A stretch of DNA of 64,000 bases from Dictyostelium discoideum (Eukaryota), in assembly GCA_000004695.1 (NCBI GenBank), contig CM000155.2:1792001-1856000 (forward strand), in the 5' to 3' direction. The position numbers and the translations under genes are program-made. The first letter of the stretch is position 1. Each line of letters begins with the position of its first letter. This document shows, piece after piece, positions 344 to 46,483 of this stretch. The notes beneath the pieces were generated by a model, which saw only the letters and a list, made by a program, of their open reading frames with translations, had not been told where the DNA came from and made no database searches.

Positions 344-546
344 AAGAGTGAATATATTTATATTCCAATTTTAAACAATTAAAATTTCATTTGTTAATAT
401 CTTTTATTAAAATTTACATGTAAAAAAAAAAAAATTAATTTTTTTTTTTTCAATATTAAAAACCAATTGCCAACTTTCGGCACTTTTAAAACCAAAAAAC
501 ATTGGGTGCTAATTCATTGGAATGTTTAAACAATTACTAACTCTAT

Positions 547-2000
547 TTAAAGTGACATATTATTATACTTTGTACCACCAATACTAGTATGACGAATAAA
601 TTGTGATCGATTGATAGGTATTGTTAAATCTTCTGAATTATTATCACTACTACTACTAGTAAATGTTGAAGAGTCTATACAAGTACTATTATTATTATTA
701 TTAATATTTTTACTACTATTAATACTACTATTGCTCATTGTTACTAATTTCTAAACTATTTAAATTATTATTATAAAGATAATTTGAATCTTTTCTTTCA
801 ATTAATATAGTTTTAGTAATTGACCAAATGTATTTAGTTATATTTGACATTAAATTTATAAATAAATCAAAAGTATAAATTAAACAACCTAATTGATGAA
901 CACAAAAACTATATTTCATTGCTTTTGGATGCTTTGAAATTAAGAAATGGTAATCATTATACATTTGTTTAATTAATTGTTTTGAATTATCATTACGAAA
1001 AACAATTGGTGTTTCATTTTGATATCTTTGAGATTTCTTTTGAATTTTAATTGATTTTATCTCTTCAATTGATTTTCTACATTCATCTAATTCCTTTATT
1101 AAATAATTAAATTTTGGTAATAGTAATGATTTTACATCCAATAGAAAATTAGTTTGAATTATGATGATGATGATTATGATAACTATCATTACCATCTTCT
1201 TGACAATTATCAATTATAAATTCTGATCCAACTAAAACCATATATTCACTACTAATATTATTTAATAAACTTTTTAAATCTTTATATTTTTGTTTATTAA
1301 ATAATAATTCAAATCTTGAATTAAACATTAAAGAACGTTGATTTGTAATTAATGATGTAATTTCTAAAAATATTGGTCTCATAGTTTCTTGAAAGATTTC
1401 TTTTGGTATCATTATCATTGATGATACTGTTGATATTGATGTTAAATCATTAATATTTCTATTGTTATTAATATCAAACCAATGAGAATTATGATTAAAA
1501 ATACTTTTAAACGCTTCTAATTGTTTGATTGAAATATCTAATAAATTAATTTCCAATTCACGATGATCATAATATGGTAAGATGAGAATTGAAGATAACA
1601 TAATTACAAACACTGCTAATGATATATGAAATGCTTGTAATTATTAGTGCATGATCTTCAGTATATTCTGGAAAAGTTATAGTAGCATAGGATAGAATAA
1701 AGAAATTACCAAATGATTGAATTGGTTTACCACGAACAAAGAAATGTATTGAAAATACTAATGTAAAAGTTAACGCAATATATGCTAAACCTTTAGTACC
1801 ATCTGAATCTGCCAATGAAAATAATACACCAACGACGTATGCTGAGAATACTCCTAATAAAGTACCAAAAAAACGCATACAATAAAAACCACTTGCACCA
1901 ACACTTGGTGATGCTACATATAAAAAAGTAACTACAAACCATGATGAATTTTGAAATAAAATAAAATATGATTTAGTTAAAATTTCATAATAACCAATTG
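547..2000 (-). CDS. putative multi-exon gene encoding a multi-pass membrane protein, family unassigned
   Basis: Four overlapping minus-strand ORFs (1567..1878, 1149..1613, 728..1213, 547..738) sit in different frames, which suggests short introns or frame changes. The 1567..1878 piece encodes several hydrophobic helices (LLGVFSAYVVGVLFSLA..., FTLVFSIHFFV). The open frame continues upstream to about 1960, with a candidate acceptor (tttgtag) near 1925. The exon structure is not resolved. Confidence 0.35.
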
Positions 2001-2633
2001 AAAATATTGATAATAATATTGTAAATTTAATTGTAAATTTCCATTTACAAAATATTATACTAATTAAATAATTAAAATTATTTTTAATTTTTAATTTTAT
2101 TTCATTTTTTCTATTTACATGTCTGTTACTTGTTTTTTTAATTTATTCAATATTGATTTAATTTATTGATACGTGAGTTTGGGTAACTGATTGCATGGAA
2201 TTTGATCTCTGGCTATCATTTAATGAAAAAGAGGAGCTAATTAAAGATTTATTATCTAGATTTGGTTGAACTAATGTTTTGAATTGATTCTATATAAAAA
2301 AAAAAAAAAAAAAAATTAATATTTACTAATTATAAATATTTTTCTTTTGTTTTTTTAAATAATATTTACTGAATAACATTCTTTGATATTTGTAGTTTTT
2401 AAAAATATTTGATTTTAATTTGAATTTCTTTTTTTTTATTTTTTTTTTTATATTTTTTTTTTTTTTTACTTTTTTTTATAATTTTTTTTTTTTTAATTAG
2501 AAATTGTAAAAATTTCGGTTTCCCACACTTTATTAAAAATTAATTGAAAATTAAACAAATAAATAAATTTTTTGTTTTTTTTAAAAGGATTTGTTTATTA
2601 ATTTTCCATAAAAAAATTAAAAAATTCAAAAAT

Positions 2634-2706
2634 GCCCAGATAGCTCAGTCGGTAGAGCGCAAGGCTTTTAACCTTGTGGTCGGGGGTTCGAGCCCCCCTT
2701 TGGGCG
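2634..2706 (+). tRNA. tRNA-Lys (anticodon UUU)
   Basis: A 73-nt cloverleaf: acceptor GCCCAGA/TTTGGGC, D-arm TAGCTCAGTCGGTAGAGC, anticodon stem CAAGG/CCTTG with loop CTTTTAA, T-arm GGGGGTTCGAGCCCCC, discriminator G. A T-run follows at 2710-2713. Confidence 0.9.
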
Positions 2707-2736
2707 AATTTTACAAATTGTTTGGTGATAGATCGA

Positions 2737-2748
2737 GTGTTCAATTCC
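2737..2748 (+). promoter_or_regulatory. external B-box-like motif (GTGTTCAATTCC) about 30 nt downstream of tRNA-Lys
   Basis: It matches the GGTTCGANTCC B-box consensus in the position where Dictyostelium tRNA genes commonly carry an extra-genic B box. Confidence 0.4.
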
Positions 2749-3476
2749 CTAGTAAACCTATTAAAAGTAATTGTGTAGTAAAGGTTTAATAGTAATTTCT
2801 GGTACCTCTTCTGATGGTATTTTAGAGTATCTTACAGAAATAAAATTTGAGATTGTTGAAATAAACAATGCTATTTTCACTGAAAATTCAATAAAAATAG
2901 AAGCAGTTCTTATAAACTCTGTAAATATCAACAATAATAATACCTCAAATAATGATTATTATTAGTTGTAGTAGTTGTAGTTGGTTTTGTTTCAATTGGT
3001 TTTACTTCCAAATATGTTGTGATTGATGTTTGTTGTTGTTGTTATGATTGTTGTAGTTGTTGTTGCTGTTGTTGTTGTTGTAGTTGTGATTGTTGTAACA
3101 TTGCTGATAATGGCTCAGAACCCAATAAATTTAAAGAGGTTGATGTAGTTGTTGTTGTAGTTGTAGTAGTTGTATTGGTTTGTTTAGTTGATAAAATATC
3201 ACCCAATTTAGCAGGATGAGTTTGAAGATGTTTTAATACCAAAGTCAAATAAATCAGTTAGATTTTTTTGGTCATCAGAATCATTAAAAGCACTTCTTAC
3301 ACCATTGTTTGTATTTTGTTTCTTTGAAAATATATCAATACCATTTTCTCTATCTTTTTCTCTTTCTCTTTCTTTATTAATAACATTATCAGCATTTTTA
3401 AATAACTCATCAATAGAAGAATTTGGTGACACACCTCTATTATTAGTGTTATTGTTATTATTATTATTAATATTAA

Positions 3477-3515
<39 letters not shown>

Positions 3516-3641
3516 CATTATTACTACTAAAATTACTAACAACTTGAAAACTCTGTAAATATCAACAATAATAATATCACAAATAATGATAATGTAAATA
3601 ATAATAATAATAATAACAATAATAATAATAACAATAATAAA

Positions 3642-3696
<55 letters not shown>

Positions 3697-4024
3697 GTAA
3701 TAACCCAAAAAATGAAAAATTTAATACAATTACAACACTTGATAGTTATGAAGATACCAGTACATCTGTTGGAGAGATTTTAGCAGTGATCGGAAAAATT
3801 ATTTTAATCCCAAATTCTGAAAAATGTCATGATGTTGATGAAAATACTTTAAGCAATAACAAATTGAACGAAGAAATGGAAAAGAATGAACCACAAAATT
3901 CCTCTCCCTCTTCATCATCAACCACCACAACCACAACTACCACAACTACCACCACAACATTATTTCTCAAACTGCTAGTATAATCACAAATGATTGGTAG
4001 TTAAATCATACAAAAATATTCATC

Positions 4025-4056
4025 CATTCATTCATTCATTCATTCATTCATTCATT
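4025..4056. repeat. (CATT)n microsatellite, about 8 units
   Basis: Reads cattcattcattcattcattcattcattcatc. Confidence 0.9.
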
Positions 4057-4133
4057 CATCCGCTCGCTCAGATTCATTAACAACTAATCAATCACTCACT
4101 TGCCCATCACTCGAAAGCTTTTCTTTTTACACA

Positions 4134-4164
<31 letters not shown>

Positions 4165-4404
4165 GAAAACATGACAATTGTCCATATACGCTACCCCCCT
4201 CATCCACAATCCAATTCAAATTAAAAATTTTTAATTTATATAATTTATTAAAACGGAATTATTGAATTATTATTTTATTTTAAATTGTTTAAACCAAAAA
4301 AAAAAAAAAAAAGAAAAAAAGAAAAAAAAAAAAAAAATATTGATCACTTTTTAAATCTTATTTATAGTATTTTTTTATTTGTTTATTTATTTATTTTTTA
4401 AAAT

Positions 4405-6460
4405 TTAAATTATTTCATTATTTTTAAATAAATCTTTTAAAGCATAAAAAGTTGCAGATCTTTTAGAAACATTTGAATAAAATTGGGTATTAGTGATTGA
4501 AATATTACAATCCTCTAAAAGATAAAGAGATAATTGTAAATGGTTATTACTTAAAGCACGATAGAGTATTTCACGTAATTGAATTTGATCGAAAATACTT
4601 TTTGAATCATTTGATCTTTTTGAAAATATTGATTTATAACCATTATCAACCAAAGCTTTAAATAATCTAATATGACCCTTTGTTGCTTCTTTTTCCAATA
4701 AACCTCTAAGATAATTTGCAAAACAAATTTTATCGCCATTATTTAAAATTACATCTGGATTGTTACCAGTTATGGTTGTTGTTGTTTTTTTTGTTGGTGT
4801 TGTTGGTGTTGTTGTTGGTGTTGTTGGTGTTGTTGTTTCAGTTGTAGCCGAATGAAAATTTGGTAAACCTAATTTAATAAAATCATTAATGAAACCTTTA
4901 CATTCAGTATCTTCAATAGTATTGAAAATTTCTTTTGATTTTTTTGAAGCATGAGAATAACCAATACCAAAATAATAATATTTTTCATCAAAAGAGAGTG
5001 GACTGAAATGATAACTATTTGGTAAAGCATTTCTGTTGTAGAATAACCATCTTTGAACTGCAATTACAAAATAATAATTTGGACAGTCTCTGTTTGGTAG
5101 ATAGGGTCTATTATTGCCAGAATTTCTATCTAGAGTTATAGAGTAAAGATAGGTAAAATCCAATACTGAATTGACGCCTTTATAGCTAACTATATGAGAA
5201 TTTGTGAAAACAACACCTTTACTATCACCACAACCTTTTGATAGAGGTGATTGAAGATAATCTATAAATGTTTTCAATACTAAACCCATTGAATTGAATT
5301 GGCAAGTATTTAATTTTGGTGGGAGTGGTACTTTGAAAACTATATCTCTTTTAAGCAATGGCGATGGTGGTGCTGTTGGTACTGATAATAATAATGATTT
5401 ATACTTTTCAACTAAATCCAATCTACAATTATAAATAAATGCTGTAATTGGCAATACTTTACTATTATTTTTTAAACAATTATTAAAAACAAATTCCAAT
5501 ACTTTTTCTGATCTAATAAAATGAAATTCAGTATGAAAACTTGGATTACCACCAACACTGGTTGAAACTCCGATTCCTATTTCATTTTTATGTTCAATTT
5601 TTAACATTGGTTTATTTAATTGATCATATGCTAATTCTATCAATTCTAAATCATCATATAATAAAACTTGTTCAAAGAAAATGTAAATATGATTATCTCC
5701 ATATTTCTTTTGGAGTGTTACAATATTAAGATATTTGCAAATGTCTTTAATGAATTGAATTTGATTTTCTTTTTTATTTTGAAATTGAAAGAGAATTGGT
5801 ATATTTCCAACAAATGATTTATCTTCAAAAATTACATTTCGAATAGTTGAACAAATAGTTGATCTTGAAACTTCTTTAAACAATTCTATATCACCAAATC
5901 TAAATGAATGCAATAATAAATCTGAATGTTTTATATTACGTGATATATTTACTTTTTCACCTGCTAACAATGAATAAAATTCATTTCCTTCAAAAAAACT
6001 ATGGCCATAAAACAATCCTAATAATTTTAAAATTGATTTTAATTTATTTTTATTATCACTATTATATTGATAATAAACAAAATCAAATATCTTTTGATTT
6101 CTTTCAATTTTAGTTATTGATTCAATTGTTTCTTTAAATTCTTTTAAACTTGGAAATATAGGTGTAATCTTTCTTTTAATTTTTTTATTACAACCACCAC
6201 CATTACTATCTTTTTTTTCTTTTTTTTCTTTTTTTTCTTTTTTTTCTTTTTTTTCTTTTTTTTCTCTTTTTCTTTCAAATTCACTTTCGCTTTCACTACT
6301 ACTATCACTTTCACTATTATCATGATTATCTTTTTTTTCTTCCTTTTCTTCTTTTTCTCTTTCGCTTTCACTACTATCACTGTCACTATCACTACTACCA
6401 CTGCTACTATCATTATCTTTTTTTTCTTTTTTTTCTTTTTTTTCTTTTTCATTTTCATTT

Positions 6461-6509
<49 letters not shown>

Positions 6510-7395
6510 CGCTATCACTACTACTATCATTTTTACTTTTACTTTTACTATCACCTTTCTTTTTTAATTTTTTAAAAATAATATTTTGATAAAAACCTTT
6601 TGGTTTTACTTTTAAATGAATCATAGATTCACATATATTTATTAAATCTTTAATAAGTAATGATTCTTGGATTGGACAAAATTTTGAAATTTTTTCAAAT
6701 CTAAGTGGTGTCACAGCTGCTGGTTTTATATGGTATCTGTTAATCATAAAGTTAATGAATTTAGCACGTTTTCTAAAACAGTATCCAAATATTGATTTCC
6801 AAAATTCATTTTCTGTGAATGGTAATTTAAATTTATCTATACTATTTTTATTGGTATTATTACTATTATTTTTATTATTATTATTATTATTTTCATTATT
6901 ATTTGAATTTTCAAAAAGATTCATCATATATTTAAATGTTTTATAACTACCATCTTCGATTGATTGAATAATATTATCGGTAGTTGGTTTATAATTATTT
7001 TCTTCAACTAATGATTTTAATGCACCAATGCAATCAGATTTTAAAATATTTTCAACAGTATAATCAATACTGAATAATGATATCTTTGGATAAAATTTAA
7101 AAAAGCTTGTATAGAATTTTTTATCATCTTTAATTGCTGAAAATAAATCTGATAATGATTTTTCAAAACCTGTTAAATATTGATTTCTATAAACTTTGTC
7201 TTTTAACAATTCAATTTCATTACATTCAATCATGCGACTAACATTAAAAACTTCATCATATCTTAATGAATGTTTACCTGTACATAATTTATTTATAATT
7301 TGTCTATTTAAATATTTATTTCTAAAAATTTTCCAAAATAATCTTTCACCATCACTCATTAGTTGTTGTTTTTGTTGTTGTTGTTGATTCTTCTC

Positions 7396-7448
<53 letters not shown>

Positions 7449-7806
7449 TCAATTTAATAGATTCTCTAATTCTTTCTAAAATATCTAATTTTTTACCACC
7501 CAATTGTTGAACACCATACTTTGTTTTTGCGATTTTTGCTATTGTTTTATATTTTTTAGTTTCTAATTCTTTCATTATTGTATCTATATCTTTTTCTTTT
7601 TCTAAACCACAATCCATATTTTGACTACCATTTTCGTTTTCATTTTCATTTTCAACCTCTTCTTCTATGATAATCTCTTTATTATTATTGTTTTTTTTAT
7701 TATTTAATTTTTCTCTTGTTGAAAGTTTTGATTTTAATTCTTGATTTTCTTTTTTTAATTTTTCTATAACATTTAATAATTCTTTTTCTCTCTTAGAAAT
7801 ACCCAT
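4405..7806 (-). CDS. large hypothetical protein (1133 aa), Dictyostelium-specific low-complexity
   Basis: A single uninterrupted ORF. It contains a poly-Thr tract, an SESESE acidic-serine stretch and KEKKEKK repeats. The N-terminus is a coiled-coil-like MGISKREKELLNVIEKLKKENQELK. Flanking regions are AT-rich. I recognised no conserved catalytic domain. A decayed paralog lies directly upstream (8000..9100). Confidence 0.7.
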
Positions 7807-7999: not shown

Positions 8000-9081
8000 T
8001 TATAAAATTTTATTTTTTTTAATTAATAAATCTAAAATATTAAATCCAAATCTTTCAAAATGATTTGGTTTATTATAATAAATCCACCTTGAAATTAAAA
8101 TTTTAATATAAAATTTTAGTCTTGGGTGACCATAAAAACTAAAATAGAATGGTCCTTTTTGATTTGTAAATTTATGATTAATTAAATAAATAAAATCAGA
8201 AATTGATTTTAAATTATTTAAACCAAAGAAATGTTCATTTTTAAAAATTACATCATCACCATCACTATCACTACAACCATTTGAAAGTGATGGTGAATTT
8301 ATTAAACCAATCATTGCTTTCATTGCAATAGTAATTGAATAAAGTCTATGAGAATAACAAATTGGTGGATCTAATTTAAATGATGGTTCAATATTTGATA
8401 TTTCTTGTGACGATGATGATGATGATGATGATGATAATAATAATGATTTATACTTTTCAACTAAAATCTAATCTTCCATTATAAATGAAATTGGTAATTG
8501 GTAATTTTTTATTACAATTTTTTAAACAATTTTTAAAAATAAATTCCAACACTCCTTCTTACCTAATAAAATTCAGTTTTACATTCTTTTTTATTACTAT
8601 TAGTACTTGCTCTATAAATATCTTGATTTATAAATTCAATTTTTAACATTGGCTTATCTAATTGTTTATATGCTAATTCTATTAACTCTAAATCATCATA
8701 CAATAAAACTTGATTAAAAATAAAATTTAAATAATTTGAATTATTTTTAACCAATTGGCAAACTTGTTTAATAAATTCGATTTTATTATTTAAATTATTT
8801 TCAAATTGAAATAACATTGGTTTAAATCCATCATTTGAAACAGGTTCATAAAAATCAAAAAAACAATTTATAAATTAAAACATTACTTTAAATAATTTAA
8901 AATTTCCAAACTTAAATGAATTCTTAAATAATTGATTTCTTCTAGGTTCATTACTTTTATATGAATAATATCTATTATTATTTAATAACATTGAATAGAA
9001 TTCATCATCATTTGAATTACAATTTTCAAAATACATTATGCAACTACACATGAATTTTAAAATGTAGTTATGGTGATCCAT
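8000..9081 (-). pseudogene. decayed tandem paralog fragment of the 4405..7806 gene
   Basis: Three short minus ORFs (8000..8323, 8563..8817, 8875..9081) are broken by stops and frameshifts. Their products align with internal segments of the 1133-aa protein: ...FIKQVCQLVKNN...NQVLLYDDLELIELAYKQLDKPMLKIE matches FIKDICKYL...EQVLLYDDLELIELAYDQLNKPMLKIE, and GCSDSDGDDVIFKNEHF matches GCGDSKGVVFTNSHI. Nucleotide similarity is also visible, for example 8440..8560 against 5390..5540. Confidence 0.6.
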
Positions 9082-9505
9082 TTCCTTAATTTGTGGAAAT
9101 ATAGGTGTAACTCTGTTTGTAAAATTATTATTAGATCTAGTTCTTTATTTGGAAGGAAATGGTGTAATGAATTTCTTATCAAACAAAGAAATTCATAATA
9201 TTAATAATTGTAATAGTAATAAGAATAAAGTTCATTAACAATTAAACAATAATAATTAAAATAATTATTTATTTATTTAGTTTAATGTATTTTCAGTCGA
9301 CTGAAAATTAAAAAACAGAAAAAAATTAAGCTATTTTTGATTCACGGTTTACAGATTTCTTTTTTTTTTTTTTTAATATTGGATTAACAAGATTGATATA
9401 TGTCCATCTGTGTTAATATACAGATTTCATATTATATTAATTGTGTTTAAATGTGATCAAAAAGGAATCGAACATGCGTTCCTGTTAAATTTTCTATAAA
9501 ATTAT

Positions 9506-9578
9506 CGCCTAGACATGGGATCGAACCATGGACCTAGCGGTTAACAGCCGCTCGCTCTGCCTACTGAGCCATCCAGGC
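9506..9578 (-). tRNA. tRNA-Asn (anticodon GUU)
   Basis: The reverse complement is identical to the plus-strand copy at 41377..41449: GCCTGGATGGCTCAGTAGGCAGAGCGAGCGGCTGTTAACCGCTAGGTCCATGGTTCGATCCCATGTCTAGGCG. The anticodon loop is CTGTTAA. A B-box-like GTTCGATTCC sits 33-42 nt downstream in tRNA sense (plus coordinates 9464-9473). Confidence 0.9.
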
Positions 9579-9612
9579 ATTTTTGATGTGAATTGATGAA
9601 ATATTGAAAATT

Positions 9613-41157: not shown

Positions 41158-41376
41158 AAATATAAAAAAAGATTAAAAAATTAAATAATAAAAAGGTAAA
41201 TTAAAAAATATTTTTTTAAAAAACTAACAATTCATATTATAAAAATAAATTTTTAATTATTTATTTATTAAATGTAAAAGAAATCATAAATTAAATAAAT
41301 TTATATTTTTTTTCAAGTTGATTATTTTACAATGTATATAATTTTTTTACATTTTTGGTGAAATTTCATCAAAAAT

Positions 41377-41449
41377 GCCTGGATGGCTCAGTAGGCAGAG
41401 CGAGCGGCTGTTAACCGCTAGGTCCATGGTTCGATCCCATGTCTAGGCG
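41377..41449 (+). tRNA. tRNA-Asn (anticodon GUU)
   Basis: GCCTGGATGGCTCAGTAGGCAGAGCGAGCGGCTGTTAACCGCTAGGTCCATGGTTCGATCCCATGTCTAGGCG. Acceptor GCCTGGA/TCTAGGC with one GU pair, anticodon loop CTGTTAA, T-arm CATGGTTCGATCCCATG. Confidence 0.9.
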
Positions 41450-41712
41450 ATACTTTTTTATTTTCAATATCATTTTTTTTTTTATCTTAAAAATGGATTC
41501 TCTACATCGAGACCTTTCAAAATATCAAAAATTCATCAGAATTGGCCAACGTTGAAAAAAGTTAATGCCTTTTTTTTATAATAATTAATTGATTGGTTAA
41601 AAAAAAAAAAAAAGAAATTTTTTTTTTTATTTTCACCATTTCAAAAAAAAAAAAATAAAAAACATATTGGTCTAGATTCAGTGAAATTGTTAAATTAAAA
41701 TATAAAAATAAA

Positions 41713-43927: not shown

Positions 43928-44360
43928 CTTTTTTTCTTTATTTGTTGTGGAATTGTGAATTAATTTTTTTTTATATGAAAACTAAAAAACTTTTTTTTTT
44001 TTTTTTTTCGAGAATTGCATAAAAAATAATTTCTTTTTTTTTTTTTTCAAACAACTATTTAATTTTATTTATTTTTCATATTATTCTAGTATAAGTAGAG
44101 AACTCAAAAATACACAAAATTATATAAAAGAATGTTTTTTGAATTTTATTTTTTATTTTTTATTTTTTATAATTGTTTTTTTATTTAGAATAACAACAAG
44201 TAGACAATAAAATTTTATATTATTACTTTTGATTAAAACATCTTTTTTGTCCAAACTTTTTTCTAAATCTTTTTTTATTTTATCGTCGGGTTCGTGATTG
44301 ATGACATATTATAAATAAAAAAATCGGATGACGTTATATTTTTTAAAAAAATAATAAAAA

Positions 44361-44431
44361 GCGTATGTGGTCTAGTGGTATGATGCATCCCTGCCACGGA
44401 TGCGAACTGGGTTCGATTCCCAGCATACGCA
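44361..44431 (+). tRNA. tRNA-Gly (anticodon GCC)
   Basis: GCGTATGTGGTCTAGTGGTATGATGCATCCCTGCCACGGATGCGAACTGGGTTCGATTCCCAGCATACGCA. Anticodon stem CATCC/GGATG with loop CTGCCAC, T-arm CTGGGTTCGATTCCCAG. A T6 terminator follows at 44436-44441. Confidence 0.9.
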
Positions 44432-44639
44432 CATCTTTTTTGAAGTTTACAGGATTTCCGAACTTCGGATGGGGTGAAAAATAAAGAATTTTACAAAGTT
44501 TGTCAAAACTGAAAATAAAAACATTTTTTTTGTTTTTCTAAAAAATCAATTAAGTTTTCATTCTTTCAAACAAATACCACATTGTTTTTAATTTGGATAA
44601 AATTATAATTTATAGTAAATAATAAAAAAAAAAAAAAAA

Positions 44640-45480
44640 TTGTAAATTATTATTACTAAACTTTTGGACTTGCAAATTTGATAATAGCTCTTGATGTAAT
44701 GTATGATTGTCAAATTATAATTGCAGGTTTGAGTAATAGTTTAAATATTTGATCAGAAATTATCGCTGAAACAATTGTCTCAAATGCTGGTTCACTGAAA
44801 TCAGTATCCAAGAGAGTTATTAGATTTCCATAATTTACACATTTAATCCCCATTCAAGTTTTCTTTGTGGAATCTAAGATTTGAAACAGGTCGTGGAAAA
44901 CTTTATGAACTAGATTCAACAATAAATTTAATAAAAATAATGAAAAAAAAATTAGAAGGGAGATAAATTCCAAATATTTTTTTGTATTTATTTATAAAAT
45001 TTTATAAAATTTTTAGAGTGAAAAATAATAATTTTAAATCAGAAGTTAAACCATTTTATTTTTAGAATTTAATTGTTTGGGAACACTATAATTTACAGAA
45101 CCATATGAATAATTTTTTTCTATTTTTGTCATATTCAAGAGTTGATAGTTTGTACCATTTGTTAATGCCGTCATGATTCCATAAGGGAAGTTTTAGGATA
45201 GGTCATGGTTTATACATATATATACCCATTCAAAGTATTCTTTGTGGAATCTTAAATTTGTGTAGTCTATGTTAACCTCTGACCCTTCTTCATATTTGGT
45301 AGAATTATAGGTGTAATCCTTTTTATAAATTTATTGTTGAATCTAGTCCTCTCGTTGGTCCAATGTTTTCATGAAAAAGAAGTTTTTCGGTTTTGGTCCA
45401 AAATTTAATAATTAAAGAATAGATGAACTAAAGGATCAATTAAAGCATCAGAAACCAATTATATTACCTCATCTCGCCAA
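44640..45480. mobile_element. non-AT-rich spacer between the convergent tRNA-Gly genes with internal direct repeats; candidate degenerate tRNA-associated (TRE3-like) retroelement remnant
   Basis: Composition is distinctly less AT-rich than the surrounding intergenic DNA. There is a 35-bp direct repeat, cccattcaagttttctttgtggaatctaagatttg at 44848..44882 and cccattcaaagtattctttgtggaatcttaaatttg at 45225..45260. No long ORF is present. Its position downstream of both tRNA genes is where TRE3 elements integrate (established biology). The identity of the element is not established from sequence. Confidence 0.3.
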
Positions 45481-45564
45481 AAAAGCTGTGAATATCAATT
45501 CAAATCAGACGTACAAATATATTTTTCCGAAGTTCGGAAATTTCGAAGCCATTAAAAAAGGTTT

Positions 45565-45635
45565 TGCGTATGCTGGGAATCGAACCCAGTTCGCATCCGT
45601 GGCAGGGATGCATCATACCACTAGACCACATACGC
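45565..45635 (-). tRNA. tRNA-Gly (anticodon GCC), identical inverted copy
   Basis: An exact reverse complement of 44361..44431, placed convergently 1.1 kb away. Confidence 0.9.
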
Positions 45636-45695
45636 TTTTTGATATAATTTTGGAAAAAATAACGAAATGCCATTTTTAAAATATTGTGTATAATA

Positions 45696-45749
<54 letters not shown>

Positions 45750-45995
45750 TTTTTTTTTTTTTTTTTTTTAAATATTGATTAATAACAGTTTATCAATTAA
45801 AGGAAATAAACGATATTTTAAAAGTTTTATTTATTGAATTTAATTATTTTTTTTTTGTATAGAAGTTATTCTTTTTTTGATTCGAATTTTTTTTTTTTTT
45901 TCAAAAAAGGGATTTGAACTGGTTTTTTTTTTTTTTTTACCTAAAAGCGGTGTAGGGGATTTGAACTGGTGACCTTAGTTTTTTCATTAAAAAAG

Positions 45996-46066
45996 TGCCG
46001 CGACCTGGAATCGAACCAGGGTCAACAGAGCCACAATCTGATGTACTACCACTATACTATCACGGC
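45996..46066 (-). tRNA. tRNA-His (anticodon GUG)
   Basis: The reverse complement is GCCGTGATAGTATAGTGGTAGTACATCAGATTGTGGCTCTGTTGACCCTGGTTCGATTCCAGGTCGCGGCA. The anticodon loop TTGTGGC is identical to human tRNA-His, and the T-arm is CCTGGTTCGATTCCAGG. Two B-box-like copies (CCAGTTCAAATCCC in tRNA sense) lie downstream at plus coordinates 45955..45974 and 45909..45922. Confidence 0.85.
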
Positions 46067-46483
46067 TTATTGTGATATTTTTCATTAAAAATTTCTCTTC
46101 CCCATTTTATTTTAAAATGATTATCAAAAAATATCACAATTGGCTTTTTTTTTAGTTAAAAATTTCTCTTTAAGGTTTTTTTTTTAAAAAATATTAATTA
46201 AAATATTTTATCAAGTCCCCCAACCTAATAATATTCAAAGATACAAACAAAGATAAAAACATAGTATAATATTAAAAGATATACAAAAACTATATAATTA
46301 TAAAACAGTTAATGATAAAGTTGAAAATTATAATTTATTAAATTGAGAGGAAAAAAAAAAAAAAAAGTAAGATTCTACAAAATTATATTCTATTATTTTC
46401 TTTTTTTATTTTTTTTTTTATTTTTTTATTTTTTTTATTTTTTTAAAAATAAATTTTACTTTTTTTTTTTACTCGTTAAATTA

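What the first reader, a model, noticed from the sequence alone, without database searches (positions are those of the whole stretch)
44361..45635. Convergent identical tRNA-Gly(GCC) pair sharing a palindromic 3'-flank motif, with a non-AT-rich repeat-containing spacer
The two genes are exact inverted copies, and the duplication extends into the 3' flank. Both carry TTTCCGAACTTCGGA, itself a TTCCGAA/TTCGGAA palindrome, about 24-40 nt downstream in tRNA sense: plus coordinates 44455..44469 and 45526..45540. The roughly 1.1 kb between them is GC-richer than normal intergenic DNA and contains a 35-bp direct repeat (44848..44882 and 45225..45260). In Dictyostelium, TRE3-type non-LTR retrotransposons integrate roughly 100 bp downstream of tRNA genes, so a degenerate TRE3-like fragment is a reasonable hypothesis. 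The alternative is an unknown Pol III-associated element.
Basis: partly seen in the sequence, partly recalled or inferred. Interest (0 to 1): 0.5.

Follow-up and report, generated by a model that had tools for sequence, protein, structure and literature searches.

The report
Paired Gly tRNA genes, conserved box
Two identical, convergent glycine tRNA genes in Dictyostelium discoideum flank fast-decaying junk DNA with no detectable TRE3 retrotransposon, and the one notable feature is a 9-base box (CCGAACTTC) kept at a fixed distance behind each gene across six related amoebae, where other tRNA genes carry an extra B box.

Summary
Two 71-nt identical tRNA-Gly(GCC) genes converge across a 1132-bp spacer in D. 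discoideum. Both carry TTTCCGAACTTCGGA at +24 to +39, and the spacer is GC-richer (25%) than local non-ORF DNA (18%).

Identical tRNA pairs are a known Dictyostelium genome trait. The TRE3 reading is not supported. The spacer has no retrotransposon ORF remnants and no real match to a genuine D. discoideum TRE3/TRE5 locus. It cannot be aligned with the orthologous spacers of its closest relatives. It is a rearranging patchwork, and the "35-bp repeat" is a lineage-specific partial duplication of a block that is single-copy and inverted in D. cf. discoideum.

The same spacer in D. dimigraforme does hold a full TRE3 plus two 3'-UTR remnants. D. discoideum has a TRE5-type remnant upstream of one Gly gene, outside the spacer.

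The motif is the real signal. CCGAACTTC sits at about +25 to +28 in 8 of 11 orthologous Gly genes, with variants in the rest. It is 93% conserved against about 40% for adjoining bases, and it occurs nowhere else in 165 kb. It occupies the position of the canonical external B box but does not match GTTCRAnYC. It is probably a Gly-specific Pol III-associated element; its function is inferred.

The parts
44135..44310 (-). Remnant of the 3' region of a non-LTR retrotransposon. It ends 51-57 nt upstream of Gly(+) and is oriented head-to-head with it (TRE5-type position). It lies outside the spacer.
   Evidence: 81% over 169 nt to L003 3263-3421, E = 6e-40; by my reading of alignment A3, about 97% over an 85-nt stretch. 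In L003 that sequence lies just 3' of a TRE-type ORF2 with a CCHC C-terminus.
44319..44360 (+). 5' flank of Gly(+), similar to the 5' flank of the other copy (45636-45677).
   Evidence: Part of inverted repeat I1, 126 nt at 88%. Within-species 5'-flank identity is 70% over 20 nt against 47% between species.
44361..44431 (+). tRNA-Gly(GCC), the copy next to the DUF498 gene.
   Evidence: ARAGORN; Rfam tRNA, 63.6 bits.
44436..44441 (+). T6 run, the Pol III terminator of Gly(+).
   Evidence: Read directly from the sequence. A run of at least four T within the first ~12 nt is present behind all 11 orthologous genes.
44458..44466 (+). Conserved 'Gly box' CCGAACTTC. Here it sits inside the palindrome TCCGAACTTCGGA, 44457-44469.
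44660..44905 (.). GC-richer patch A (30% GC). It contains direct-repeat copy D2a (44834-44883) and a 47-aa ORF (44710-44853, minus strand) with no real homologues.
   Evidence: The ORF is not a called gene, has no Pfam domain, and its phmmer hits are repeat artefacts.
44909..44937 (.). Inverted-repeat arm I18a, partner of 45320-45347.
   Evidence: 96.6% over 29 nt.
45046..45420 (-). GC-richer patch B (28% GC). It contains D2b (45209-45260), I18b (45320-45347) and a ~100-nt dispersed segment (45268-45375).
   Evidence: The segment matches window 9074-9171 (local score 38 against 20.6 +/- 2.8 for shuffles), L003 1447-1548 (76% over 103 nt) and, inverted, L003 6060-6143. A protein-level family HMM finds nothing.
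45529..45537 (-). Conserved 'Gly box' of the second gene (GAAGTTCGG on the + strand). Here it sits inside the 17-nt palindrome TTTCCGAAnTTCGGAAA.
45554..45559 (-). T6 run (A6 on the + strand), the Pol III terminator of Gly(-).
   Evidence: Read directly from the sequence.
45565..45635 (-). tRNA-Gly(GCC), the copy next to tRNA-His.
   Evidence: ARAGORN; Rfam tRNA, 63.6 bits.
45636..45677 (-). 5' flank of Gly(-), the partner arm of 44319-44360.

Best explanation
This is an ordinary Dictyostelium tRNA gene pair. Two identical tRNA-Gly(GCC) genes in convergent orientation are each transcribed by Pol III from internal A/B boxes and terminated at a T-run 4-11 nt past the gene. About 15 nt beyond each terminator lies a 9-nt box, CCGAACTTC in tRNA sense, which in D. 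discoideum is extended to a palindrome. This box is under purifying selection. It occupies the slot where two thirds of D. discoideum tRNA genes carry an external B box, and it most likely serves as a Gly(GCC)-specific protein-binding element of the Pol III transcription unit. That function is inferred, not shown. The 1.1 kb between the genes is unconstrained DNA. It turns over quickly through duplication, inversion, minisatellite growth and retrotransposon insertion. In D. discoideum it holds decayed, formerly coding-like fragments, one of them related to the DDB_G0285075 gene family, and no recognisable TRE3. The two gene copies and their proximal 5' flanks appear to be kept alike by gene conversion (inferred).
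For: The window is D. discoideum. Pairs or triplets of tRNA genes with identical anticodons are a described genome feature (PMC8163159). The convergent pair is present in D. discoideum, two D. cf. discoideum assemblies and D. dimigraforme; the pair is tandem in D. citrinum and the gene is single in D. firmibasis. Gly box: the exact 8-mer CGAACTTC lies at +26..+29 in 8 of 11 genes, and variants occur in the other three. Mean pairwise identity is 93% for the 9-mer against 42% and 37% for the 20 nt on either side, and shuffled flanks share an 8-mer in at most 2-4 sequences. All 9 occurrences of CCGAACTTC in 165 kb lie behind Gly genes, against 0.16 expected from composition. The neighbouring tRNA-His keeps a canonical GTTCRAnYC box at +29..+32 in four species, while the Gly genes have none. 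External B boxes are reported ~41 bp downstream of 66% of tRNA genes (PMC3159450). Spacer: the three closest spacers do not align outside the genes and the box. Shared blocks are short (70-83%) and rearranged, and the repeat block is single-copy and inverted in D. cf. discoideum. No gene is called in the spacer, there are no Pfam or Rfam hits and no TRE homology. Within-species 5'-flank identity is 70% against 47% between species.
Against: All 11 Gly genes come from one ancestral locus, so I could not show that the box accompanies Gly(GCC) genes elsewhere in the genome. No binding or expression data exist here. The box fails the exB consensus on either strand; its reverse complement GAAGTTCGG keeps GTTCG but has G where the invariant A58 should be and lacks C61. 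TFIIIC binding is therefore only a guess. The GC-richer patches and the ~100-nt dispersed segment, four copies in 165 kb and two of the other three lying downstream of a tRNA gene in the same relative orientation, could still belong to a mobile element I had no reference for. The gene-conversion inference rests on five species pairs.
Confidence: 0.72

Rival explanations
1. The spacer is a degenerate TRE3 (or other tRNA-downstream-targeting) retrotransposon remnant, and the direct repeat is one of its modules.
For: The spacer lies downstream of two tRNA genes, which is the TRE3 and Skipper-2 target zone (PMC5006619). The orthologous spacer of D. dimigraforme holds a full TRE3 and two 3'-UTR remnants. 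One 32-nt, 84% match to the D. discoideum TRE3 3' UTR lies at 45045-45076 in the orientation of Gly(-). The ~100-nt dispersed segment recurs downstream of tRNA-Asn and tRNA-His in the same relative orientation. An A16 tract lies at 44624-44639.
Against: TRE ORFs give no tblastn hit in the window. Blastn against a complete D. discoideum TRE3 with its TSD and 3' UTR, and against a TRE5-type element, finds only low-complexity hits. The 32-nt match does not extend (74 against 70 +/- 17). The TRE3 3'-UTR signature AACAAACACCGCCG...GATCACAGGT(A)n is absent next to the A16 tract. The dispersed segment maps onto coding sequence of the host DDB_G0285075 / 1133-aa ORF family.
Confidence: 0.12
2. The shared motif is only a leftover of the inverted duplication that made the pair and has no function; its palindromic form is a coincidence.
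For: Both genes plus about 42 nt of 5' flank form a 126-nt, 88% inverted repeat, so flanks were co-duplicated or co-converted. The full palindrome is present in only 4 of 11 genes.
Against: The box is kept at the same offset in single-copy D. firmibasis, in the tandem D. citrinum pair and in all convergent pairs, while the adjoining 20 nt on each side are at background identity. Within D. discoideum the 13 nt between the terminator and the motif are only 5/13 identical.
Confidence: 0.06
3. The box is a degenerate or inverted external B box that still binds TFIIIC. It would then be a sequence variant of exB and not a separate element.
For: It has the same position as exB (+26..+29 against +29..+32 for His). 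The Gly genes lack a canonical exB. The reverse complement contains the B-box core GTTCG.
Against: It does not fit GTTCRAnYC on either strand: G replaces A at the position equivalent to 58, there is no C61, and the bases beyond GTTCGG vary between species. Every exB seen here (Lys, Asn, His, Phe) is in tRNA sense, whereas the GTTCG of the Gly box is antisense.
Confidence: 0.25
4. The spacer holds a small functional gene or non-coding RNA that explains the GC-richer patches and the conserved repeat core ATTCCACAAWGAAWACTTTGAAYGG.
For: Patches of 28-31% GC. A 47-aa ORF. The repeat core is kept in three copies across two species.
Against: No gene is called in any assembly. In-frame stops break every longer reading frame. 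There are no Pfam or Rfam hits. The phmmer hits are repeat artefacts. Block order and orientation are not conserved, and the block was not detected in the D. cf. discoideum JBTAPI spacer.
Confidence: 0.05

Closest known systems
External B box (exB) of Dictyostelium tRNA genes (Hofmann et al. 1991, cited in PMC3159450; consensus GTTCRAnYC, ~41 bp downstream of 66% of tRNA genes)
   Same: A short conserved box in the 3' flank, about 15-20 nt past the Pol III terminator. It lies at the same offset as the exB of the neighbouring tRNA-His and is kept across species while the rest of the flank decays.
   Different: The sequence is CCGAACTTC, not GTTCRAnYC. The only B-box-like pentamer (GTTCG) is on the opposite strand and is followed by G instead of the invariant A. 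It is partly palindromic and is so far seen only behind Gly(GCC) genes of one ancestral locus.
TRE3 non-LTR retrotransposon insertions ~100 bp downstream of tRNA genes
   Same: The spacer is the TRE3 target zone, and in D. dimigraforme it really is occupied: a full element behind Gly(+) and two 3'-UTR remnants behind Gly(-).
   Different: The D. discoideum spacer has no TRE3 ORF, UTR, poly(A) junction or target-site duplication that I could detect.
Paired or tripled tRNA genes with identical anticodons in the D. discoideum genome (PMC8163159, citing the genome paper)
   Same: Two 100% identical tRNA genes about 1.2 kb apart.
   Different: Nothing essential. This study adds that the convergent arrangement predates the D. 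discoideum / D. dimigraforme split and that the proximal 5' flanks look homogenised within species.
Extra-TFIIIC (ETC) sites and solo B boxes (yeast; B boxes on the Dictyostelium rDNA palindrome, PMC5391098)
   Same: Short Pol III-factor-type motifs outside the transcribed gene body, proposed to organise transcription complexes or chromatin.
   Different: Those are canonical B boxes; this motif is not. It is also attached to a complete tRNA gene and is not a solo site.

Membership tests
Dictyostelium identical-anticodon tRNA gene pair | Two tRNA genes with the same anticodon and identical sequence, close together | tested here: met
   The 71-nt genes are identical and 1132 bp apart. The feature is described in PMC8163159.
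External B box (exB) | Matches GTTCRAnYC in tRNA sense | tested here: not met
   A regex scan finds exB behind Lys, Asn(9505), His (two copies) and Phe, but none behind either Gly gene. The sense strand reads CCGAACTTC; the antisense strand reads GTTCGG + variable bases.
External B box (exB) | Located a few tens of nt downstream of the tRNA gene, past the T-run | tested here: met
   CGAACTTC lies at +26..+29, against exB of tRNA-His at +29..+32.
External B box (exB) | Binds TFIIIC | not testable with these tools
   Needs EMSA, ChIP or footprinting.
TRE3 retrotransposon fragment | Homology to TRE3 ORF1 or ORF2 | tested here: not met
   tblastn of D. dimigraforme TRE3 ORF1 and ORF2 finds copies in L004, L005, L006, L003 and L008 but nothing in the window.
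TRE3 retrotransposon fragment | Homology to TRE3 UTRs or a poly(A) junction, with a target-site duplication | tested here: not met
   The D. discoideum reference copy L008 5985-8590 has the TSD ATTTCACCCACAGTTAAA. The spacer shows only low-complexity hits and one non-extending 32-nt match. Only one TRE3 subfamily was tested.
TRE3 retrotransposon fragment | Similarity to TRE3-B/C/D, Skipper-2 (DGLT-P), DGLT-A or the TRE5 C-module | not tested
   No reference sequences for these elements were reachable with the tools.
TRE5-type remnant (applies to 44135-44310 only) | Non-LTR element sequence about 50 bp upstream of a tRNA gene, head-to-head | tested here: met
   81% over 169 nt to the region 3' of a TRE-type ORF2 in L003. 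It ends 51-57 nt upstream of Gly(+) on the opposite strand. Identity with reference TRE5-A/B/C was not tested.
DDB_G0285075 / 1133-aa ORF gene family (fragment in spacer patch B) | DNA similarity to a family member | tested here: met
   45280-45375 against 9074-9171: local score 38 against shuffles 20.6 +/- 2.8, maximum 30. 9132-8039 is a paralogue of aa 540-940 of ORF 4405-7806 (tblastn E = 1.5e-19 and 1.1e-17) and corresponds to AX4 DDB_G0285075.
DDB_G0285075 / 1133-aa ORF gene family (fragment in spacer patch B) | Protein-level homology | tested here: not met
   The family HMM against the six-frame spacer gives a best E of 1.1. tblastn of the 1133-aa ORF gives no spacer hit.

The most novel reading that the evidence does not exclude
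CCGAACTTC (core GAAnTTC, often extended to the palindrome TCCGAAnTTCGGA) is a previously undescribed, isoacceptor-specific downstream control element of Dictyostelium Pol III genes. It would replace the canonical external B box at Gly(GCC) genes and recruit either TFIIIC in a non-canonical mode or a different, probably dimeric, DNA-binding factor that influences tRNA-Gly output, termination or re-initiation, local chromatin, or retrotransposon targeting.
Probability: 0.3. Interest if true: 0.5.

Novelty: new variant of a known kind. Interest (0 to 1): 0.3.

Why it matters
Most of the finding is ordinary: a known type of tRNA gene pair with a junk spacer. The box is a small but concrete lead. 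One third of D. discoideum tRNA genes lack the canonical external B box, and nothing is reported about what, if anything, replaces it. A conserved, differently spelt box at the same position behind Gly(GCC) genes suggests that downstream elements are more diverse and possibly isoacceptor-specific. That would bear on differential tRNA expression during development and on how TRE3 and Skipper-2 elements choose sites downstream of tRNA genes. The cross-species series also documents a convergent tRNA pair acting as a long-lived retrotransposon landing pad with rapid spacer turnover.

Tried and rejected
- **Spacer as a pseudogene.** DNA-level similarity of about 100 nt to the DDB_G0285075 family is real. 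Protein-level tests fail (tblastn with seg; relaxed; family HMM), so I do not call it a pseudogene.
- **TRE3 tail at the A16 tract or at 45045-45076.** Rejected: no 3'-UTR signature, and gapped alignment is no better than background.
- **47-aa spacer ORF.** It is not a called gene, has no Pfam domain above the curated cut-off (only a sub-threshold Tuberin match at E = 0.12 for the 47-aa ORF), and its two phmmer hits (E = 1.8e-12 and 2.3e-6) are a translated tandem repeat and a bacterial beta-propeller, with scores summed over 12 and 5 repeats. These are artefacts.
- **Known RNA families in 44200-46200.** Only the tRNAs.
- **HSE, STAT or Myb site readings of GAAnTTC / TTCCGAA.** From memory, the spacings do not fit (HSE needs GAAnnTTC; STAT needs TTCn3-4GAA). 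Not pursued.
- **RNA hairpin or back-up terminator reading of the palindrome.** The palindrome's outer arms are not conserved, there is no covariation, no T-run follows it, and it lies past a T4-T6 terminator.
- **Independent Gly(GCC) loci.** Exact-pattern scans of metagenome contigs, prokaryotic genomes and viral contigs gave nothing. The two metagenome hits to a shorter pattern belong to another organism with a different tRNA body and no box.
- **Literature string search for the motif.** Only unrelated primers.
- **Eichinger 2005 genome paper.** Not held.
- **AX4 TRE3-like protein P0017.** Could not be located on a contig.
- **Simple whole-spacer flip by recombination between the inverted genes.** The central block is inverted between species at matching distances, but gene-proximal blocks are collinear. 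At most an internal inversion is supported.

Full report
**Source and observation.** The window is Dictyostelium discoideum. It has 22.9% GC and exactly matches contig JBTAPE010000034.1 of GCA_054883475.1, whose proteins are named D. discoideum.

ARAGORN and Rfam place tRNA-Gly(GCC) at 44361-44431(+) and 45565-45635(-). The two 71-nt genes are identical and convergent. The 15-mer TTTCCGAACTTCGGA is at 44455-44469, and its reverse complement is at 45526-45540. The pattern TCCGAAnTTCGGA occurs nowhere else in the 64 kb. The "35-bp" direct repeat is real but imperfect and somewhat longer than stated: 44834-44883 / 45209-45260, at 77-85% identity. There is also a 29-nt inverted repeat, 44909-44937 / 45320-45347, at 96%. 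The spacer is 25.3% GC, against 18.2% outside long ORFs, with patches at 28-31%.

I fetched the syntenic locus, anchored on the adjacent DUF498 gene, from six relatives and mapped the tRNAs:
- The convergent Gly pair is present in D. discoideum, two D. cf. discoideum assemblies and D. dimigraforme.
- D. citrinum has two Gly genes in tandem.
- D. firmibasis has one.
- D. purpureum has none at this site.

All Gly genes are sequence-identical. The proximal 5' flanks of the two copies are more alike within a species (70% over 20 nt) than between species (47%). The exception is the tandem D. citrinum pair, at 45%. This suggests gene conversion between the copies, but that is an inference from few data points.

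**The flank motif is the genuine signal.** In tRNA sense, the exact 8-mer CGAACTTC lies at +26..+29 behind 8 of 11 genes in six taxa. The other three carry variants:
- CGGAACTTC, plus an inverted copy at +81;
- CACGAAATTCGG;
- TGAACTTCGGA, displaced by a 19-nt minisatellite.

The universal core is GAAnTTC. Anchored on the box, mean pairwise identity is 93% for the 9-mer CCGAACTTC, against 42% and 37% for the 20 nt on either side. No 8-mer is shared by more than 2-4 of 11 shuffled flanks. All nine occurrences of CCGAACTTC in the 165 kb of dictyostelid sequence I hold lie behind a Gly gene, where base composition predicts 0.16. Within D. discoideum itself, the 13 nt between the terminator and the motif are only 5/13 identical between the two copies. 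The motif is therefore not just a co-duplicated flank. It has been kept by selection since before the D. firmibasis / D. discoideum split.

The full palindrome TCCGAAnTTCGGA is present in only 4 of 11 genes, and CGAAnTTCG in 7 of 11. What is conserved is the oriented 9-mer, not the hairpin potential.

**Relation to the external B box.** External B boxes (GTTCRAnYC) are reported about 41 bp downstream of 66% of D. discoideum tRNA genes (PMC3159450). In my data the Lys, Asn(9505), His and Phe genes carry one, and the His box is conserved at +29..+32 in four species. The Gly genes have none.

The Gly box sits in the same slot but fails the consensus on both strands. Its reverse complement, GAAGTTCGG, keeps GTTCG. 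It then has G where the invariant A belongs, and the bases that follow vary between species. It lies beyond a T4-T6 terminator in every gene, so it is unlikely to act as RNA.

My best reading is a Gly(GCC)-specific protein-binding element of the Pol III unit, functionally analogous to exB. Position and conservation are shown. Binding and function are inferred. I could not test whether non-syntenic Gly(GCC) genes carry it: scans of three collections found no further Dictyostelium copies.

**The spacer is unconstrained, rearranging DNA and not a TRE3.**
- *Genes and RNAs.* No gene is called in it in any assembly. Every longer reading frame is broken by stops. There are no Pfam or Rfam hits. The only phmmer hits of its 47-aa ORF are repeat-summed artefacts.
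- *Conservation.* MAFFT cannot align the spacers of D. discoideum and its two closest relatives outside the genes and the box. Sensitive blastn finds only short blocks at 70-83%, in changed order and orientation.
In D. discoideum it is partly duplicated, which creates the direct and inverted repeats.
- *The dispersed segment.* One ~100-nt piece (45268-45375) is dispersed. It matches window 9074-9171 (score 38 against 20.6 +/- 2.8 for shuffles), L003 1447-1548 and, inverted, L003 6060-6143. The 9-kb copy belongs to a decayed paralogue (AX4 DDB_G0285075) of the C-terminal half of the neighbouring 1133-aa ORF. A family HMM sees nothing in the spacer at the protein level. I therefore describe it only as a relic fragment.

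**Direct TRE tests.** D. dimigraforme supplied a full TRE3-type element, with ORF1 and an endonuclease + RT ORF2. The D. discoideum assembly supplied a textbook locus (L008). There, tRNA-Phe is followed by an exB and then by a TRE3 flanked by the duplication ATTTCACCCACAGTTAAA, with the 3' UTR ...AACAAACACCGCCG...GATCACAGGT(A)n. A TRE5-type element lies upstream.

Neither the ORFs (tblastn) nor the DNA match the spacer beyond A/T-rich runs and one 32-nt stretch. That stretch does not extend: 74 against 70 +/- 17 for random tiles.

In D. dimigraforme the same spacer holds the full TRE3 behind Gly(+), and two 3'-UTR-only remnants behind Gly(-) that end about 54-72 nt from the gene, just past the box. 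In D. discoideum, a retrotransposon remnant lies outside the spacer at 44135-44310. It is head-to-head with Gly(+), ends 51-57 nt upstream of it, and is 81% identical over 169 nt to the region 3' of a TRE-type ORF2 in D. cf. discoideum. That is the TRE5 configuration.

**Limits.** Only one TRE3 subfamily and part of one TRE5-type element could be compared. TRE3-B/C/D, DGLT-A, Skipper-2 and the DNA transposons were unavailable.

**Verdict.** The locus is an ordinary Dictyostelium tRNA pair with a junk spacer. The TRE3 interpretation is not supported for D. discoideum. The flank motif is a conserved element at the exB position that does not match exB, and it is worth a genome-wide check. Interest is modest.

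Noticed in passing
window 44135-44310 (minus strand): Remnant of a non-LTR retrotransposon 3' region. It ends 51-57 nt upstream of tRNA-Gly(+) and is head-to-head with it, the classical TRE5 position. It is 81% identical over 169 nt (about 97% over an 85-nt stretch) to sequence 3' of a TRE-type ORF2 in D. cf. discoideum (L003 3263-3421).
   Followed up: partly
window 8039-9132 (minus strand), next to ORF 4405-7806: Partial paralogue of aa 540-940 of the adjacent 1133-aa ORF, which has no Pfam domain. It carries in-frame stops in this strain. AX4 annotates the equivalent as DDB_G0285075 (329 aa). It lies downstream of tRNA-Asn 9505-9579 in the same orientation.
   Followed up: partly
L004 (D. 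dimigraforme) 400-5222, 5442-5576 and 5632-5817: The Gly-Gly spacer is expanded to 5.5 kb by a full-length TRE3-type element behind Gly(+) and by two inverted 3'-UTR-only remnants behind Gly(-). Their UTRs are 100% and 94% complementary to that of the full copy.
   Followed up: yes
L003 (D. cf. discoideum JBTAPH) ~6260-6379: A 19-nt minisatellite (tatatttttaaccatttca) that includes the Pol III T-run is expanded directly behind Gly(-). It pushes the Gly box about 150 nt away from the gene.
   Followed up: no
window 41451-41530, and orthologous flanks in L002-L006: tRNA-Asn 41376-41450(+) lacks an external B box. Its 3' flank keeps a conserved block, AAAAATGGATTCYCYACA...CGAGAnCTTTCAAAATATC, at about +35..+75 in the discoideum-group species. 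It may be the promoter of the neighbouring Med4 gene.
   Followed up: no
window 45919-45927 and 45966-45974: tRNA-His 45995-46066(-) carries two copies of the external B box GTTCAAATC (+29 and +76) in D. discoideum. The relatives have one.
   Followed up: no
window 44319-44360 / 45636-45677, and orthologues: The 5' flanks of the two Gly copies are more similar within a species (0.65-0.95 over 20 nt in convergent pairs) than between species (mean 0.47). The tandem D. citrinum pair is at background (0.45). This suggests gene conversion between the inverted copies.
   Followed up: partly
L003 2400-2800: A 42-49% GC island with a 119-aa ORF lies in the D. cf. discoideum His-Gly interval, among retrotransposon 3'-end repeats. 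It has no Rfam match and its identity is unknown.
   Followed up: partly
L008 4883-5800 (D. discoideum CM142510.1): Five tandem ~199-bp modules lie at the tRNA-proximal end of a TRE5-type element upstream of tRNA-Phe, with a TRE3 downstream of the same gene. This is a doubly targeted tRNA gene.
   Followed up: no
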